DNA of 64,000 bases from the human T2T-CHM13v2.0 reference genome, Homo sapiens. The stretch is from assembly GCF_009914755.1 (NCBI RefSeq), contig NC_060931.1. One strand, given 5' to 3'. The stretch's first letter is position 1. Each line of letters opens with the position of its first letter. Of this stretch, positions 491-45,350 are shown one piece after another. The notes beneath the pieces are model-generated. The model had not been told where the DNA came from and searched no databases. It saw nothing but the letters and a program-made list of their open reading frames with translations. Made by a program: the position numbers and the translations under genes.

Positions 491-560
491 ACTCCCGACA
501 AAAAGCAGAATGATCAGCGAAATCGGAAAAGAAAAGCTGAACCATATGAAACTAGCCAAG
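491..560 (+). pseudogene. TLK2: TLK2-copy exon, 70 nt ([24 protein letters not shown])
   Basis: aacag|ACT...CAAG|gtagt. Matches TLK2 [24 protein letters not shown] with E>D. Confidence 0.95.
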
Positions 561-1415
561 GTAGTAATAATTTCGTATCAACAAAAGTACTCAATTCTAA
601 TGTACTTAGATAGAATTTTCTAACTCATACTAAATAATTAGTTTGTACACAGGGATTCCTGATAAAGGAGGTTTGTGTATCTTAAGGGAATATCAGACTG
701 TTTATTACAGACTTGCCATTTGATATACACCTGACAAAATAGTGTTAGTTCTTCGGGGACTCTTTTTTTCCCTGTTGTAAGCTAACAATCTTCTTAACCA
801 CAGGTTTTTCTTTACACCAAGCATATATTGTACAAATAGAGGTTATGTCAGAGTTTTAACTCTGTCTTTTGTTAGATCAGTGATTTGTTAATGACAGCCA
901 GCTGAAAGTGCTTCATTTACATTACTGTCCTTTCTGCCTACTGCTCTTCCATGGCAGTTGTTTAGTTGAATATTGGAACCCACTGGGATAAATCTGTAAA
1001 CATGATGGTTATAATGCCAAATATCTTTATATAATCAAAGAAAGAAAAAATGGCTTGGCTTTTTTTCTCCCATTCTAAGGAATAGAAAGCCCAGTCTTGT
1101 TGCATCCTTCTTATCTTTTAAAATCTACAGATAATTCATTTTGTCTTTGGGAGCAAAATTCTCCCAAAGTGACAAGAAAAATTACAGAATCTTAAACCTG
1201 TGAAAAATTCTTCCTTTCACTGCTTGTTCAGTCCTTTATTTTATGGAGGAAATAGTCTGTTCTTAGGCTAAGGTATTTTGGCTCATTTGTTACAAGTAAA
1301 GCTGACACTTGGGTTTATAGCAATGTATGTAGTTACTGAATGTATAGTACATTTTAGTGAATGATGGTTTATATGTGTATTGGAAAAACTGTATTTACTT
1401 TGGTTTCATTTTCAG

Positions 1416-1459
1416 GGAAAGGCACTCCTAGGGGACATAAAATTAGTGATTACTTTGAG
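1416..1459 (+). pseudogene. TLK2: TLK2-copy exon, 44 nt (G-KGTPRGHKISDYFE)
   Basis: ttttcag|GGAAAG...TTTGAG|gtaagt. Confidence 0.95.
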
Positions 1460-1581
1460 GTAAGTTACATTTTTTGAAAAAACAAACAAAAAAACAAAAC
1501 AAAACAAAAAAACTCTATAGTGATTTTTTTTAAAAACCCTAAATCCTTGTGTTCATTTGAGGCTTTAGAAAGTAATATTTT

Positions 1582-1888
1582 GGCCAGGCAAGGTGGCTTA
1601 TGCTTGTAATCCCAGCACTTTGGGAGGCCGAGATGGGAGGATCGCTTGAACCCAGGAGTTCGAGACCAACCTGGGCAACATGGGGAAACCCTGTCTCTAC
1701 AAAAAACAGAAAAAATTAGCCAGGTGTGGTGGCACACACTTATAGTCCTGGCTACTTGGGAGGCTGAGGTGGGAGGATCACTTGAGCCTGAGAAGTCGAG
1801 GCTGCAGTGAGCCATGATCTACTGCACTCCAGCCTGGGTGACAGTGAGACCCTGTCTCCAAAAAAAAGAAAAAAAGAAAGAAAGAAAG
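1582..1888 (+). mobile_element. AluJ with TSD agaaagtaat(a/g)tttt
   Basis: Full dimer, A-tail and flanking direct repeat. Confidence 0.9.
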
Positions 1889-41568: not shown

Positions 41569-41700
41569 GCCCTCACAATCCAGTGGAGGAGACGAAACTC
41601 AGCTGCCTCTGTCCCTCTGGGCACGCCTCATGCCAGGTGCATCTGTGGACAGGGGCCATGCTCCTGGGCTTCCAAAGTTGGAGAAAGCTGCCAGGCTCAG
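41569..41700 (+). other. Candidate 132-nt exon of the chimeric transcript (antisense to the retro-insert)
   Basis: gtctccttctag|GCCCTC...GGCTCAG|gtgggt. Size and sequence agree with my recollection of an exon in the paralogous subtelomeric lncRNA family (unverified). Confidence 0.6.
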
Positions 41701-44700
41701 GTGGGTACATCACAGCAGCTGCTGCCCTCTGGACACAGTGACAAAAGAACACTCTGGGCCTGGAGCCCTGGTCTGGGGCATTGGGCAAGGCTGTTGCACT
41801 TCTCTGAGCCCATTTCCCCATCTGGAAAGTGCGCTGATTGTATCTCCCTGTGGGCACTGAGGGCTCAGTGTTAGTTTGAGAGCCAGTATCTGGGGTTTGG
41901 GCTGTAATTCCCCATCAGCCCCATAGCTGCGGGGAACCAGGGACTTTGTTGGGATTACCCTAGGCATCAGTCTAGCTTCCTGCCCCTGGCTTGGGCTCAG
42001 CACCTGAAGTAGTCTAGGGGGTAGGTGGTCCTGGTGGGGGCTGGGGCTTTTCCCCAGACTGAGCTCACACCCAGAGCCAGAAATCTTGGTGCCTGCTCTG
42101 GGCAAAGGTGCCAGCCTGTGCGACAAGAGCGTAACTCCGTCTCCAAAACAAAACAAAAAACCTTGCATCATTTCAAGGGGCTCACACCTCCCTAAGGGCC
42201 TGGTAATTGGCTGGCTCTGACCTGCATTTGGCCCCGAGGGTGTAGGTAACACCCCACCTTACCTGGTTTCTTCCTGCCAGGGCCAACTTCAGACCTCAGG
42301 ACTTTGCAGCCTATTCCACCTCCCCTTTGGCCAGCCTTGAGCCCTTGTGGGTCCGGCACTTTTTCCAGGCTGTCTCCTGGTTGTCCTTCTGCCTCGAGGC
42401 CCGGCTCATGCTACTCCCCCTCCCACTCACCAAGACCCACAAGGACCACTCCACACCCAGCTCAGCCCCATCCCCTCAAATAGTCCTTTCTCTTTCCTCA
42501 GGTGGCCAGGTGCATATCTTGGTGTGAGGACCTTCACTGTATCTGGGAAGGCCCTACTGGTCACCTTGGTGACAGAGACCAAGGCATTTACCTGATATGA
42601 GTGTCTTGGTTCACTGTCTACATGGCTAGGGAGGGAGTCAATAATAGGCTTTTCACTTGCTGCAAGGGCCAGTTCTCCTGGCCCCATGGCTCTAGGGACG
42701 GAGGATGCTGCAGGAGATGCACCGCTTACTTCCCAGCTGAGGACTGTGGGTCATCTCAGGGTGATTTCACAGTCCCCACATGCCCCACCCCCTCAGCTCT
42801 GCAAATACCAAGCAGTGCAACCTGCCGAGGGGATGATGGGCTCGAGAGTGCCCAGGTAGTGCCCAGAGTGCCCTTGGCAGGCCCCTCACCTAGCTGCTTC
42901 CACAGCTCTGTAGCAAGAGTTCTAACCTTTTTTGACCATGAAGCCTGCTGAGAATAAGAGCTGTGGACTGTTTTCCCAGAAAGGCATGTACATGCTCTCC
43001 ACACAAAACCTTTCATCGTGGCCAAGCACAGTGGCTCATGTAATCCCAGAACTTTGGGAGGCGGAGCCAGTCGGATCACCTGAGGTCAGGAGTTCAAGAC
43101 CAGCCTGCCCAACATGGCGAAACCCTGTCTCTACTAAAAATACAAAAAATTAGCCAGGCGTGGTGGGAGCCACCTGTAATCCCAGCTCCTCCGGAGGCTG
43201 AGGCAGGAGAATCACTTGAACCCGGGAGGCGCAGGTTGTAGTGTGGTGAGATCACGCCACTGCACTCCAGCCTGGGCGACAGGAGCAAAACTCTGTCTCA
43301 AAAAACAAAACAAAACAAAACCTTGCATCCTTTCAGGGGGCTCACACCTCCCTAAGGGCCCGGTAATTAAACCCCCTGGGCCTGAGGGTGAGAAACTTTG
43401 TCTCAGTTCTTCCCTGAGTGATCAGCCCAGGGGTAAGGAAGGAGAAGCCAGAAAGCAGGACCCATGAGAAGGGCCCCCTCCTGGAGTTTGAGGCCCACTC
43501 CCTCCTGCCCCTGCCTCTCCTCTGTCCAGGACTCCTCCCTGCTCTGCCCCACTCCTGGGGCTGTAACCATGGGGAGCTGTGGTTTTCTACAGGCCCCTGG
43601 GCACAAAGTGGGCAGGCTCACCTGGAGGCGATCAGAGTAACATGGCAGGAAGTGAGGGGGAAAGCCGCCCTGGAACTGCGCCTCTCTGCCCCCTGATGTC
43701 ACTGGCATGCACTCCTCCCTCCCGTCACTCAGGCAGTGGCATGAGTTCCATGTGAGCGCTGGCCTGCTCCCTCTGCTGCCTCTTTTTTTTCTTGGGGCTA
43801 CCATAACACTTGCCCTTCCCCAGCCCTGCCAACCTGGTGGGACATTGGGCTTCCCTCTCACAGGGTCCTGGGGACAGGCACAGGCCCATCCTTTATCATA
43901 CCCACAGAGAGACCCTTTTTTTCTTCAGGATCTGGGGAGCAGCCAGGTTCCATGAGTTAAATGCAGATCTGAACCAAGCTGAGATTAGGGTACACACTCT
44001 CCTCTACTGAAAAGTAGCTAGAGATTCCAACTAGGTGAGAAGAAGAGTGGGGCAGAGGCAGACCAGACAAGGACTGATCACCTGGAAAAAGCCGGTCATC
44101 AAAGGTCTTGGCAAATGCTGGGTGCAGTGGCTCACTCCTGTAATCCCAGCACTTTGAGGGGCTGAGACAGGTGGACTACTTGAGGCAAGGAGTTCGAGTC
44201 CAGCCTGGGCAACATGGCAAAACCCCATCTCTACTAGAAATACAAAAATTAGCTAGGCATGCTACACTCCTGTAATCCCAGCTACTCAGGAGGCTGAGGC
44301 AGGAGAAATCACTTGAACTGGGGAGGCAGAGGTCGAAGTGAGCTGAGATTGTGCCCCTGCACTCCAGTCTGGGAGACAGAGTGAAACTGGGCCTCAAAAA
44401 AAAAAAAAAAAAGAATATGGCCTTGGCAGAGAGGGGCCAGCCCGGCAGTGCCTTCCCTTGGGTTTCTCCTGGGTAGGCCTCTGCCATGAGGAGGCACTTC
44501 CTTCTGCCTGTCCATGGCCCACAGCAATGGAATGTCTGCTTCTGGGGGTTGGGTGGGAGACCGCTGGCAGAACTGGAAACCTTCAGGTGGGTTTTTTTTG
44601 TTTTGTTTTGTTTTCGAGATGGAGCGTCGCTCTGTTAGCCAGGCTGGAGTGCAGTGGTGGAATCTCAGTTCACTGCAACCTCCGCCCCCCGGGTTCAAAC

Positions 44701-44927
44701 AATTCTCCTGTCTCAGCCACCTGAGTAGCTGAGATTACAGGCATGTGCCACCATGCCCGGCTAATTTTTGTATTTTTTGTATAGATGGCATTTTGCCATG
44801 TTGGCCAGGCTGGTCTCGAACTCCTGACCTCAAGTGATCCACCCTCCTCGGCCTCCCAAAGTGCCGGGATTACAGGCATGAGCCACTGAGCCCAGCCCCT
44901 TCAGGGGGGTTTTGGGGCTCCACTACA

Positions 44928-45350
44928 ATACTAGTTTCCTGTGGCTGCTGCAACAAATTACCACACACTTAGTGACTTAAAACAACCAAAATGCATTCCC
45001 TTACAGGTCTGAAGGCCAGAATTCTACAGTAAGTCCTACTCAGTCAAGGTGGGAGCAGGGTCAGTGGCTTCCGAGGCTCTGCGGGAGAATCCGTTTCCTG
45101 GCCGTGGAGGTGGCCTGCACTCCTCAGCTTGTGCTGCCCGTCTCGAATGACTGGAGTTTCCTGCTTCTGTCACTACACCTCCCACCCTCTCCATCACCTG
45201 CTCTGCTCTTATAAGGATCCGAGTGAGTACATCAACCCCAAAAGCCAAAGACCCTTAACTTCATTATATTTGCAAAGCCCCTTTTGCCATATAAGGTCAT
45301 GTTCACCAGTTCCCGGGATTAGGATATGGGCATCTTGGGGGCATCAGCCT
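44928..45350 (-). mobile_element. MLT1 (MaLR) LTR
   Basis: tagtttcctgtggctgctgcaacaaattaccacacacttagtgacttaaaacaac...ataaggtcatgttcaccagttcccgggattagga. Confidence 0.8.
45007..45222 (+). other. Candidate 216-nt exon exonised from an MLT1 LTR
   Basis: cattcccttacag|GTCTGA...ATCCGA|gtgagt. Confidence 0.55.

What the first reader, a model, noticed from the sequence alone, without database searches (positions are those of the whole stretch)
491..45214. Latent spliced ORF for a kinase-less TLK2 fusion protein, blocked only by one skippable exon
Seen: both TLK2-copy stop codons (14372, 14504) lie in a single 168-nt phase-0/phase-0 exon, and the other six exons are open with intact GT-AG. Joining exon 38380-38490 to 40389-40498 (GTF2I exon read in a non-GTF2I frame, [17 protein letters not shown]...), 41569-41700 (PSQSSGGDETQLPLSLWARL...) and 45007-45222 (SEGQNSTVSPTQSRWEQ...) keeps the frame open for 149 further codons to TAA at 45212-45214. 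Established: TLK2 dimerises through its N-terminal coiled-coils, and truncated human duplicates such as SRGAP2C can antagonise the parent gene. Inference: skipping the 168-nt exon, with intact upstream exons outside the window, would give a ~370-aa protein. It would keep the basic NLS-like RNRKRK and the first coiled-coil, gain a de novo tail and lack the kinase, so it could modulate TLK1/2. Caveat: further downstream exon junctions would predict NMD.
Basis: partly seen in the sequence, partly recalled or inferred. Interest (0 to 1): 0.8.

Follow-up and report, generated by a model that had tools for sequence, protein, structure and literature searches.

The report
Decaying partial TLK2 copy, paper-only fusion ORF
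This stretch is a broken, kinase-less partial copy of the human TLK2 gene joined to an unrelated multi-copy duplicated segment; the proposed fusion protein can be read on paper, but the sequence shows neutral decay and nothing shows it is made.

Summary
Window exons 491-560, 1416-1459, 2525-2620, 14372-14539, 30641-30736, 32010-32102 and 38380-38490 are TLK2 exons 4-10. All keep AG/GT. Both stops (14372, 14504) lie in the 168-nt phase-0/0 exon 7. Joining exon 10 to 40389-40498, 41569-41700 and 45007-45222 stays open for 149 codons to TAA 45212-45214. Exons 1-3 exist upstream: Met1 is lost, Met2 kept, giving 369 aa if exon 7 is skipped.

The functional reading is not supported:
- The copy differs from chr17 TLK2 by 15 nonsynonymous and 5 synonymous changes (pN/pS 0.85).
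- Exon divergence (2.4%) equals that of flanking introns (1.9%).
- Exon 7 splice sites are unchanged, and both TLK2 retrocopies contain exon 7.
- The tail frame is broken in 9 of 13 full-length paralogs.
- The stop sits 8 nt before a donor, so nonsense-mediated decay (NMD) is likely.

The duplication and a "TLK2-like-chr7" transcript (AC090114.3-201) are already in print (PMC13333887), which reports minimal promoter activity. Verdict: a known unprocessed partial pseudogene at an Alu-borne duplication junction. Low interest.

The parts
1..326 (-). 3' part (on the + strand) of a ~2.1 kb antisense SVA-type retrotransposon, specific to the chr7 copy, in intron 3. It runs from about -1782 to 326 and ends 164 nt before exon 4.
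   Evidence: the chr17 alignment breaks at -1784 and resumes at 327, with 13 nt of chr17 used twice; a poly-T start, a GC-rich VNTR, an Alu-like part and a (GGGAGA)n end, a 13-nt target-site duplication, and an empty site in chr17. The name SVA comes from my reading of this layout (recalled), not from a repeat library.
491..560 (+). TLK2-copy exon 4 (70 nt, phase 0 to 1). It carries the basic RNRKRK motif. There are 2 differences from the parent (E54D and one synonymous).
1416..1459 (+). TLK2-copy exon 5 (44 nt), identical to the parent.
2525..2620 (+). TLK2-copy exon 6 (96 nt, phase 0/0). Differences from the parent are A95G and R109L.
14372..14539 (+). TLK2-copy exon 7 (168 nt, phase 0/0) with both stops: TGA at 14372-14374 (R122*) and TAA at 14504-14506 (Q166*). 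It has 7 differences from the parent. Its splice sites are unchanged.
26110..26190 (+). Old exon-8-like pseudo-exon in intron 7 (about 90% to exon 8, with a 1-nt insertion). It is also present in the chr17 parent.
30641..30736 (+). TLK2-copy exon 8 (96 nt, phase 0/0), identical to the parent.
32010..32102 (+). TLK2-copy exon 9 (93 nt, phase 0/0). Differences are D211N, K231R and one synonymous change.
38380..38490 (+). TLK2-copy exon 10 (111 nt, phase 0/0) and the last TLK2 exon present, with R262Q. The donor is AAG|gtcagt, against gttagt in the parent. Read-through into the intron stops after 3 codons.
39760..39882 (.). Junction of the two duplications, inside an antisense Alu fragment that follows an L1 fragment. 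Homology to chr17 ends at 39882. Homology to the multi-copy duplicon starts at 39759/39760.
   Evidence: query 1-3883 to C17; query 3760/3761-11001 to 13 full-length copies. One search printed the sequence. The Alu and L1 identities come from my reading (recalled).
40389..40498 (+). Tail exon T1 (110 nt), a GTF2I-derived pseudo-exon. Its native frame is broken by a frameshift.
41569..41700 (+). Tail exon T2 (132 nt), open in all three frames. Its homologues are found only in the duplicon family and older chr7 copies.
45007..45222 (+). Tail exon T3 (216 nt) with TAA at 45212-45214, 8 nt before its gtgagt donor. A dispersed repeat follows at about 45248-45341.
48327..48385 (+). A 59-nt exon-like segment with a strong acceptor and a gtacgt donor. 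It is a possible further downstream exon of the duplicon's lncRNA and matters for the NMD prediction.
   Evidence: That a 59-nt exon follows in a paralogous lncRNA model is recalled, not shown by any search.

Best explanation
The interval is the 3' part of an unprocessed, 5'-partial duplicate of TLK2. Exons 4-10 are in the window and exons 1-3 lie 3-47 kb upstream. It was made by the large chr17q23-to-7q32 segmental duplication that also made METTL2B. The copy is cut in intron 10 inside an Alu fragment (39760-39882). There it abuts one member of a multi-copy, largely subtelomeric duplicon that carries a GTF2I-derived pseudo-exon and two more exon-like segments.

Shown: the copy lacks all TLK2 sequence after exon 10 and therefore the kinase. 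It has two nonsense codons and a lost Met1, and it accumulates substitutions at the neutral rate.

Inferred: whatever is transcribed from the retained CpG-island promoter is a non-coding or NMD-prone pseudogene RNA. The exon-7-skipped 369-aa fusion frame is a by-product of phase-0 exon architecture plus a chance-open tail frame. It is not an evolved coding unit.
For: (1) The copy is colinear with chr17 TLK2, introns included, from -80 kb to 39882, with 2.1-2.6% mismatches in blocks. Homology then switches to 13 full-length and several partial copies at 96-97% on C1, C3, C4, C5, C7, C9, C10, C11, C16, C19 and C20.
(2) The 1500 nt of retrocopied TLK2 cDNA that follow exon 10 (L003:1-1500, shown to continue the TLK2 reading) have no match in the window at E <= 1e-5.
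(3) Over 277 codons there are 15 nonsynonymous (including 2 stops and Met1) and 5 synonymous differences. pN/pS is 0.85. This is compatible with neutrality (p = 0.79), and omega <= 0.2 is rejected (p = 0.002).
(4) The two retrocopies polarise 18 of 21 exonic differences as derived on chr7. One is derived on chr17 and 2 are unresolved.
(5) Coding divergence is 20/831 = 2.4%, against 399/20685 = 1.93% in 14 clean intron flanks (p = 0.31). Exons other than exon 7 differ at 13/663 = 1.96% (p = 0.89).
(6) Exon 7 splice sites are identical to the parent apart from the nonsense base, and both TLK2 retrocopies (2 of 2) contain exon 7.
(7) For the tail frame, T1 has a TAA in 1 of 15 young copies. T3 has a TAG in 8 of 14. 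All three exons are open in only 4 of 13 full-length paralogs. GTF2I itself has 2 stops in the T1 frame.
(8) The stop is 8 nt upstream of the T3 donor, and a further exon-like segment follows.
(9) In print (PMC13333887, passages read): about 200 kb was duplicated from chr17 to chr7 in the human-gorilla ancestor. There is no annotated TLK2-like gene in RefSeq. The promoter copy has 4-fold lower bidirectional transcription and 'minimal activity as a promoter', and acts as a distal element for METTL2B. A preprint calls the duplicate counterparts of TLK2 and two other genes 'likely nonfunctional' (PMC11463660, one passage).
Against: Several results fit a still-usable transcription unit:
- All 10 exons keep their splice sites.
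- Met2 sits in an A(-3)/G(+4) context, with no upstream ATG in the 5' UTR as delimited.
- The promoter copy is still a CpG island (GC 76%, CpG o/e 0.80, 162 CpGs against 172 in the parent).
- A GENCODE-derived transcript model exists (AC090114.3-201, named 'TLK2-like-chr7' in PMC13333887). I could not see its exon structure.

The 149-codon tail frame is open less often than chance predicts for one fixed frame (0.46-0.76% of shuffles). Exon 7 carries more changes than the flank rate predicts (7/168, one-sided p = 0.045). That is the direction expected if exon 7 alone were dispensable, but the contrast with the other exons is not significant (p = 0.15). With only 20 differences, omega as high as 0.3-0.5 cannot be firmly excluded (p = 0.03 and 0.21). 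No expression data could be examined here.
Confidence: 0.85

Rival explanations
1. A minor isoform skips exon 7, splices exon 10 to T1-T2-T3 and is translated from Met2 into a 369-aa nuclear, kinase-less protein. This protein would heterodimerise with TLK1/TLK2 through coiled-coil 1 and modulate them, in the manner of SRGAP2C or CHRFAM7A.
For: The frame arithmetic is correct and the upstream exons, ATG and CpG island are intact. RNRKRK and exons 8-10 are kept with only 3 conservative replacements. CC1 is required for TLK homo- and heterodimers, and the N-terminus carries the NLS (PMC6023931 and PMC11879137). The open tail frame is rarer than chance. A transcript model exists at the locus.
Against: Evolution of the retained exons is neutral. 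Exon 7 splice signals are unchanged, and exon 7 is present in 2 of 2 retrocopied mRNAs. The tail frame is broken in 9 of 13 paralogs. NMD is expected for both the exon-7-included and the fusion isoform. Promoter activity is reported as minimal. An SVA-type insertion lies 164 nt upstream of exon 4. The helix that begins in exon 10 appears to continue into exon 11, which is missing, so the completeness of CC1 is unproven.
Confidence: 0.02
2. The locus matters as non-coding regulatory DNA or RNA. The duplicated TLK2 promoter now works as a distal enhancer of METTL2B. The TLK2-like transcript, perhaps running into the duplicon's exons, would be a by-product or a cis-acting lncRNA.
For: CRISPRi of the promoter copy lowered METTL2B by 18.5%, and bidirectional transcription was detected (PMC13333887). 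The CpG island is preserved. The tail exons have consensus splice sites shared by the whole duplicon family.
Against: The published element lies about 46 kb upstream of the window. Nothing ties the exons in 491-45214 to that activity. The effect size is small and comes from one cell type.
Confidence: 0.3
3. The exon-7-included transcript is translated from Met2 to the first stop. That would give a 120-aa disordered N-terminal TLK2 fragment with the basic motif but no coiled-coil.
For: The frame from Met2 to TGA at 14372 is open for 120 codons. The N-terminal fragments of TLK1/2 alone are nuclear and are recruited weakly to damage sites (PMC11879137).
Against: The stop lies many exon junctions upstream of any 3' end, so strong NMD is expected. 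Substitution is neutral in these exons. Transcription is low.
Confidence: 0.03

Closest known systems
Unprocessed (duplicated) partial pseudogenes inside primate segmental duplications; this one appears in print as 'TLK2-like-chr7' / AC090114.3 (PMC13333887)
   Same: It keeps introns and the promoter, is colinear with the parent and truncated at the duplication edge, carries nonsense mutations and shows a neutral pN/pS.
   Different: Nothing essential differs. The only notable point is that all splice sites survive and both stops happen to fall in one symmetric exon.
SRGAP2C (truncated duplicate that dimerises with and antagonises its parent; recalled from Charrier 2012 and Dennis 2012, not read here)
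   Same: It is a 5'-partial duplicate that retains an oligomerisation region and loses the catalytic or effector part.
   Different: SRGAP2C has an intact ORF in its normal transcript and is expressed. The TLK2 copy has two stops in a constitutive exon and needs both exon skipping and chimeric splicing. It also shows no constraint.
CHRFAM7A (fusion of a partial CHRNA7 duplicate with FAM7A exons at a duplication junction, acting as a dominant negative; recalled)
   Same: Exons from two unrelated duplicons sit on one strand, so splicing could make a chimeric ORF with a novel terminus.
   Different: CHRFAM7A transcripts and protein are documented. No junction transcript is documented here, and the novel part would be a C-terminal out-of-frame tail that ends just before a donor.
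TLK2 processed pseudogenes at C17:34.98 Mb and C10:37.86 Mb (TLK2P1 and TLK2P2 by recall)
   Same: They are dead TLK2 copies. The chr10 retrocopy independently carries the same CGA>TGA change at codon 122.
   Different: They are intronless retrocopies of the whole mRNA. The chr7 copy is genomic and partial, and it has its own promoter.
Subtelomere-associated duplicon lncRNAs with GTF2I-derived exons (for example the chr1 model AL627309.5, whose first exons I recall as 110, 132 and 216 nt)
   Same: T1, T2 and T3 have exactly these lengths and consensus splice sites, and they are 96-99% identical across at least 13 copies.
   Different: The annotation of those paralogs is recalled and not checked by any search. 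Only in this copy does a TLK2 fragment lie upstream on the same strand.

Membership tests
Unprocessed partial pseudogene of TLK2 | Genomic (intron-containing) colinearity with the parent gene | tested here: met
   ten colinear blocks from -80 kb to 39882 at 95.6-97.2% identity; 10 of 10 exons in order and of equal length (exon 1 is 594 against 619 nt).
Unprocessed partial pseudogene of TLK2 | Truncation: the 3' exons, including the kinase domain, are absent | tested here: met
   homology to C17 ends at window 39882; the 1500 nt of TLK2 cDNA after exon 10 (from retrocopy L003) have no match in the window.
Unprocessed partial pseudogene of TLK2 | Disabling mutations in the parental frame | tested here: met
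   R122* (14372), Q166* (14504) and Met1 ATG>ATA.
Unprocessed partial pseudogene of TLK2 | Loss of purifying selection | tested here: met
   pN/pS 0.85; exon divergence 2.4% against 1.93% in flanks (p = 0.31).
Truncated-duplicate antagonist (SRGAP2C / CHRFAM7A type) | Open reading frame in the normally spliced transcript | tested here: not met
   two stops in exon 7; exon 7 splice sites unchanged; exon 7 present in 2 of 2 retrocopied TLK2 mRNAs.
Truncated-duplicate antagonist (SRGAP2C / CHRFAM7A type) | Retention of the parent's oligomerisation domain | tested here: inconclusive
   Exons 8-10 are present with 3 replacements. The passages read give no CC1 limits. The helix-like sequence continues into the missing exon 11.
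Truncated-duplicate antagonist (SRGAP2C / CHRFAM7A type) | Stable mRNA and protein product | not testable with these tools
   There is no transcript or proteome resource here. PMC13333887 reports 4-fold lower transcription and minimal promoter activity. Its supplements could not be opened.
Truncated-duplicate antagonist (SRGAP2C / CHRFAM7A type) | Evolutionary constraint on the new ORF | tested here: not met
   (TLK2 part is neutral). (tail frame open in 4 of 13 full-length paralogs).
Chimeric gene at a segmental-duplication junction | Exons of two sources on one strand with usable splice sites and a compatible phase | tested here: met
   exon 10 ends in phase 0, and T1-T3 have AG/GT and stay open in that phase.
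Chimeric gene at a segmental-duplication junction | Transcripts spanning the junction | not testable with these tools
   No RNA data are held. The RefSeq table supplied with the finding has no model here. The structure of AC090114.3-201 was not available.
GTF2I-derived pseudo-exon (T1) | Homology to an exon inside the GTF2I gene | tested here: met
   87% identity to C7:75931024-75931224 (+); that site lies between the first (75902510) and second (75934755) of six same-strand PF02946 hits. No PF02946 hit falls in the window.

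The most novel reading that the evidence does not exclude
At low level, in some tissue or under NMD-limiting conditions, the chr7 copy might produce the exon-7-skipped chimeric mRNA. 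Its 369-aa product would hold the TLK2 N-terminus, the basic motif, the LC8 site and most of coiled-coil 1, plus a 149-aa tail with no parental reading frame. It would bind TLK1/TLK2 and dampen trans-autophosphorylation, giving African apes and humans a lineage-specific brake on TLK signalling.

A second, more practical reading is also not excluded. The copy could act as a donor of R122* or Q166* into TLK2 by interlocus gene conversion, or as a source of mis-mapped reads, which would be relevant to TLK2 haploinsufficiency disease.
Probability: 0.02. Interest if true: 0.7.

Novelty: already known. Interest (0 to 1): 0.15.

Why it matters
TLK2 is a dosage-sensitive kinase whose loss causes a neurodevelopmental disorder. 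A lineage-specific kinase-less partner would therefore be of real interest, which makes it useful to show that the sequence argues against one. The practical points are modest:
- The copy is about 98% identical to TLK2 exons 2-10 and carries two nonsense variants, at codons 122 and 166.
- Short-read mis-mapping could therefore mimic truncating TLK2 alleles.
- Interlocus gene conversion, raised in general terms in PMC11463660, could create such alleles.
- The junction is a clean example of two duplications joined within an Alu fragment.

Tried and rejected
1. Earlier findings of this scan were not open.

I counted stops per exon with three protein searches of the genome instead. These report stops inside each aligned exon. 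They do not check exon lengths, splice sites or frame continuity between exons in the paralogs, so 'open in 4 of 13' is an upper bound.

They may hold the CRISPRi and expression values for 'TLK2-like-chr7'. The exon structure and expression level of that model therefore remain unseen.

4. Literature searches:
- TLK2 + METTL2B: 8 papers.
- AC090114.3: 2 records of one work.
- TLK2 + segmental duplication + pseudogene: 5 papers.
- TLK2 + Arg122: 2 papers. I opened one (PMC6752480), where Arg122 is an STXBP1 variant. I did not open the other (PMC8115915); by its title it concerns SMARCA5.
- TLK2 with c.364C, c.496C, Gln166, R122X or Q166X: none of the 10 papers listed, out of 23 found, mentions TLK2.
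I found no printed description of the fusion ORF and none of these two nonsense changes in TLK2. This holds only for the library searched.

5. I looked for the 66-nt and 59-nt exons that I recall following the 216-nt exon in a paralogous lncRNA model. A convincing 59-nt candidate lies at 48327-48385. No convincing 66-nt candidate was found; the one at 46162-46227 has a poor acceptor.

6. I considered that exon 7 might decay faster because it is skipped. Its 7/168 differences against 13/663 in the other exons are not significant (p = 0.15).

7. I considered a transposon origin for T3. The dispersed-repeat matches (363 first-look candidates, 40 scored) cover only 45248-45341, downstream of the donor. 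T3 itself has just two distant extra relatives, on C10 and C22, so this is not shown.

8. I ran no complex or structure prediction. My report does not claim binding, and spliced products are not window-exact sequences.

Full report
**What is there.** The window is human chr7q32, as stated by the hub. A search of the window's own genome with the exon at 38380-38490 found the parent on C17:63430001-63430111 at 99% identity. It also found two intronless copies (C17:34.98 Mb and C10:37.86 Mb) and a weaker paralogue on C2. I used the C17:34.98 Mb retrocopy (L003) as a cDNA proxy. It places seven TLK2 exons in the window: 491-560, 1416-1459, 2525-2620, 14372-14539, 30641-30736, 32010-32102 and 38380-38490. 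Three more lie upstream, outside the window: exon 1 at -46662..-46069, exon 2 with the start codon at -44224..-44139, and exon 3 at -3064..-2993. All nine coding exons have the same length as in the parent and keep AG and GT.

- The parental frame of the copy has exactly two stops. They are CGA>TGA at 14372 (codon 122) and CAA>TAA at 14504 (codon 166). Both are in exon 7, which is 168 nt and phase 0 at both ends.
- Exon 10 ends in phase 0.
- Joining exon 10 to 40389-40498 (110 nt), 41569-41700 (132 nt) and 45007-45222 (216 nt) keeps the frame open for 149 codons to TAA at 45212-45214.
- Each tail exon has a pyrimidine-rich AG acceptor and a consensus-like donor.
- Upstream, Met1 is destroyed (ATG>ATA). 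The adjacent Met2 survives in a good context, and there is no upstream ATG.
- Skipping exon 7 would give 369 residues, 220 from TLK2 and 149 from the tail. Including it gives a 120-residue stub.

**Origin of the two halves.**
- The chr7 sequence is colinear with chr17 TLK2, introns included, from at least -80 kb to window 39882.
- From 39759/39760 onward the window matches 13 full-length and several partial copies at 96-97%. Most lie near chromosome ends: C1, C7, C11, C19 and C20 near the start, and C3, C5, C9 and C16 near the end. Interstitial copies lie on C1, C4, C7 and C10. Older relatives at 83-89% lie on C7 at 56.3, 66.3, 67.0 and 68.1 Mb.
- The 123-nt overlap (39760-39882) reads as an antisense Alu fragment following an L1 fragment (identities by my reading). 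The two duplications are therefore joined within an Alu.
- T1 is 87% identical to C7:75931024-75931224. That site lies between the first and second of six same-strand GTF2I-domain hits, that is, inside GTF2I.
- T1's native GTF2I frame is frameshifted.
- The 1500 nt of TLK2 cDNA after exon 10, preserved in L003, have no match in the window. The kinase region is therefore absent.

**Is the frame maintained by selection? No.**
- Over 277 codons the copy differs from the parent at 20 sites: 15 nonsynonymous (including the two stops and Met1) and 5 synonymous. pN/pS is 0.85. This fits neutrality (p = 0.79) and rejects omega <= 0.2 (p = 0.002) and omega <= 0.3 (p = 0.03).
- Using the two retrocopies as outgroups, 18 of 21 exonic differences are derived on chr7. 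One is derived on chr17 and 2 are unresolved.
- Coding divergence is 2.4% (20/831), against 1.93% (399/20685) in 14 clean 1.5-kb intron flanks. I dropped four flanks because they run into the chr7-only insertion or the breakpoint.
- Exons other than exon 7 differ at 1.96% (13/663), indistinguishable from introns (p = 0.89).
- Exon 7 is somewhat richer in changes (7/168, one-sided p = 0.045 against flanks). The contrast with the other exons is not significant (p = 0.15).

**Is exon 7 skippable?**
- Its acceptor (-25..+2) and donor (-3..+8) are identical to the parent, except for the first exonic base, which is the nonsense change itself.
- Both independent retrocopies of TLK2 mRNA contain exon 7.
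- I know of no TLK2 isoform lacking it (recall only).
- Nothing in the sequence favours skipping.

**The tail.**
- Shuffling shows the 149-codon frame would be open in only 0.46% (92/20000) to 0.76% (38/5000) of randomised versions. By itself it is therefore unusual.
- The same exons exist in many paralogs, and there the frame is not kept. T1 is open in 14 of 15 young copies and T2 in 14 of 14. T3 carries a TAG in 8 of 14.
- Only 4 of 13 full-length paralogs have no stop in any of the three exons. This per-exon count does not check splice sites or frame continuity.
- T2 is open in all three frames.
- The exon lengths (110, 132, 216) match what I recall of the first exons of a subtelomeric lncRNA model on chr1 (AL627309.5). 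This is recall, not a tool result. It suggests T1-T3 are ordinary lncRNA exons of this duplicon.
- The stop lies 8 nt before the T3 donor, and a further well-formed 59-nt exon-like segment lies at 48327-48385.

**What is in print.**
- PMC13333887 (Mol Biol Evol 2026; passages read) describes this duplication. About 200 kb moved from chr17 to chr7 in the human-gorilla ancestor.
[quoted passage not shown] It adds the CAT/Liftoff model AC090114.3-201 under the name 'TLK2-like-chr7'.
- It finds bidirectional transcription at the promoter copy that is 4-fold lower than at TLK2.
- My mismatch rates (1.9-2.6%) fit that age.
- The promoter copy is still a CpG island, which fits continued regulatory activity.
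- PMC11463660 (one passage) lists TLK2 among ancestral paralogs whose duplicate counterparts are 'likely nonfunctional' and raises interlocus gene conversion.
- PMC6023931 and PMC11879137 (passages) confirm that coiled-coil 1 is needed for TLK1/TLK2 dimers and that the N-terminus holds the NLS. They give no residue limits in the text I saw. The sequence after exon 10 in the retrocopy looks like a continuation of the same helix, so whether the copy holds all of CC1 is open.

**Verdict.** The best explanation is a known, neutrally decaying, unprocessed partial TLK2 pseudogene fused by an Alu-borne junction to a multi-copy duplicon. The in-frame path is a consequence of the run of phase-0 TLK2 exons (6 to 10) and a chance-open, unconserved tail frame (confidence 0.85). 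The functional fusion-protein reading keeps about 2% probability, pending transcript data that these tools cannot supply.

Noticed in passing
window about -1782 to 326 (intron 3 of the TLK2 copy): A chr7-specific ~2.1 kb insertion laid out like an antisense SVA: poly-T, SINE-R-like part, VNTR, Alu-like part and (GGGAGA)n. It has a 13-nt target-site duplication, and chr17 shows the empty site. It ends 164 nt before exon 4 and could disturb splicing of any transcript.
   Followed up: partly
window 26110-26190, and C17:63417775-63417855: An exon-8-like pseudo-exon in intron 7 (about 90% to exon 8, with a 1-nt insertion). It is present in both the copy and the parent, so it is an old intragenic duplication that predates the chr17-to-chr7 event.
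   Followed up: partly
window 14372; L004 (C10:37.86 Mb retrocopy): The chr10 TLK2 retrocopy independently carries the same CGA>TGA change at codon 122. This CpG is recurrently mutable.
   Followed up: no
window 2541 (codon 95): Here the chr7 copy and both retrocopies share G (GGG, Gly) while chr17 TLK2 in this assembly has C (GCG, Ala). The change may be on the TLK2 lineage, a polymorphism, or gene conversion.
   Followed up: no
window 40389-45214: T1 begins with ATG ATG. The 149-codon frame could therefore also stand alone as an ORF of the duplicon's own spliced RNA, without TLK2. It shows no stop in 4 of 13 full-length paralogs.
   Followed up: partly
window 45248-45341: A dispersed repeat lies immediately after the T3 donor. 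It gave 363 first-look candidates genome-wide, and about 80% identity to scattered loci among the 40 scored. It reads like a MaLR-type LTR by recall.
   Followed up: partly
about -47.2 to -45.8 kb (outside the window; exon 1 and promoter copy): The CpG island is retained in the chr7 copy (GC 76%, CpG o/e 0.80, 162 CpGs against 172 in the parent), although exon 1 is only about 91% identical and has indels.
   Followed up: partly
window 38904, 38912, 39638: ATTAAA, ATTAAA and AATAAA signals lie in the 1.9 kb between the exon 10 donor and T1. They offer an alternative end for a truncated transcript.
   Followed up: no
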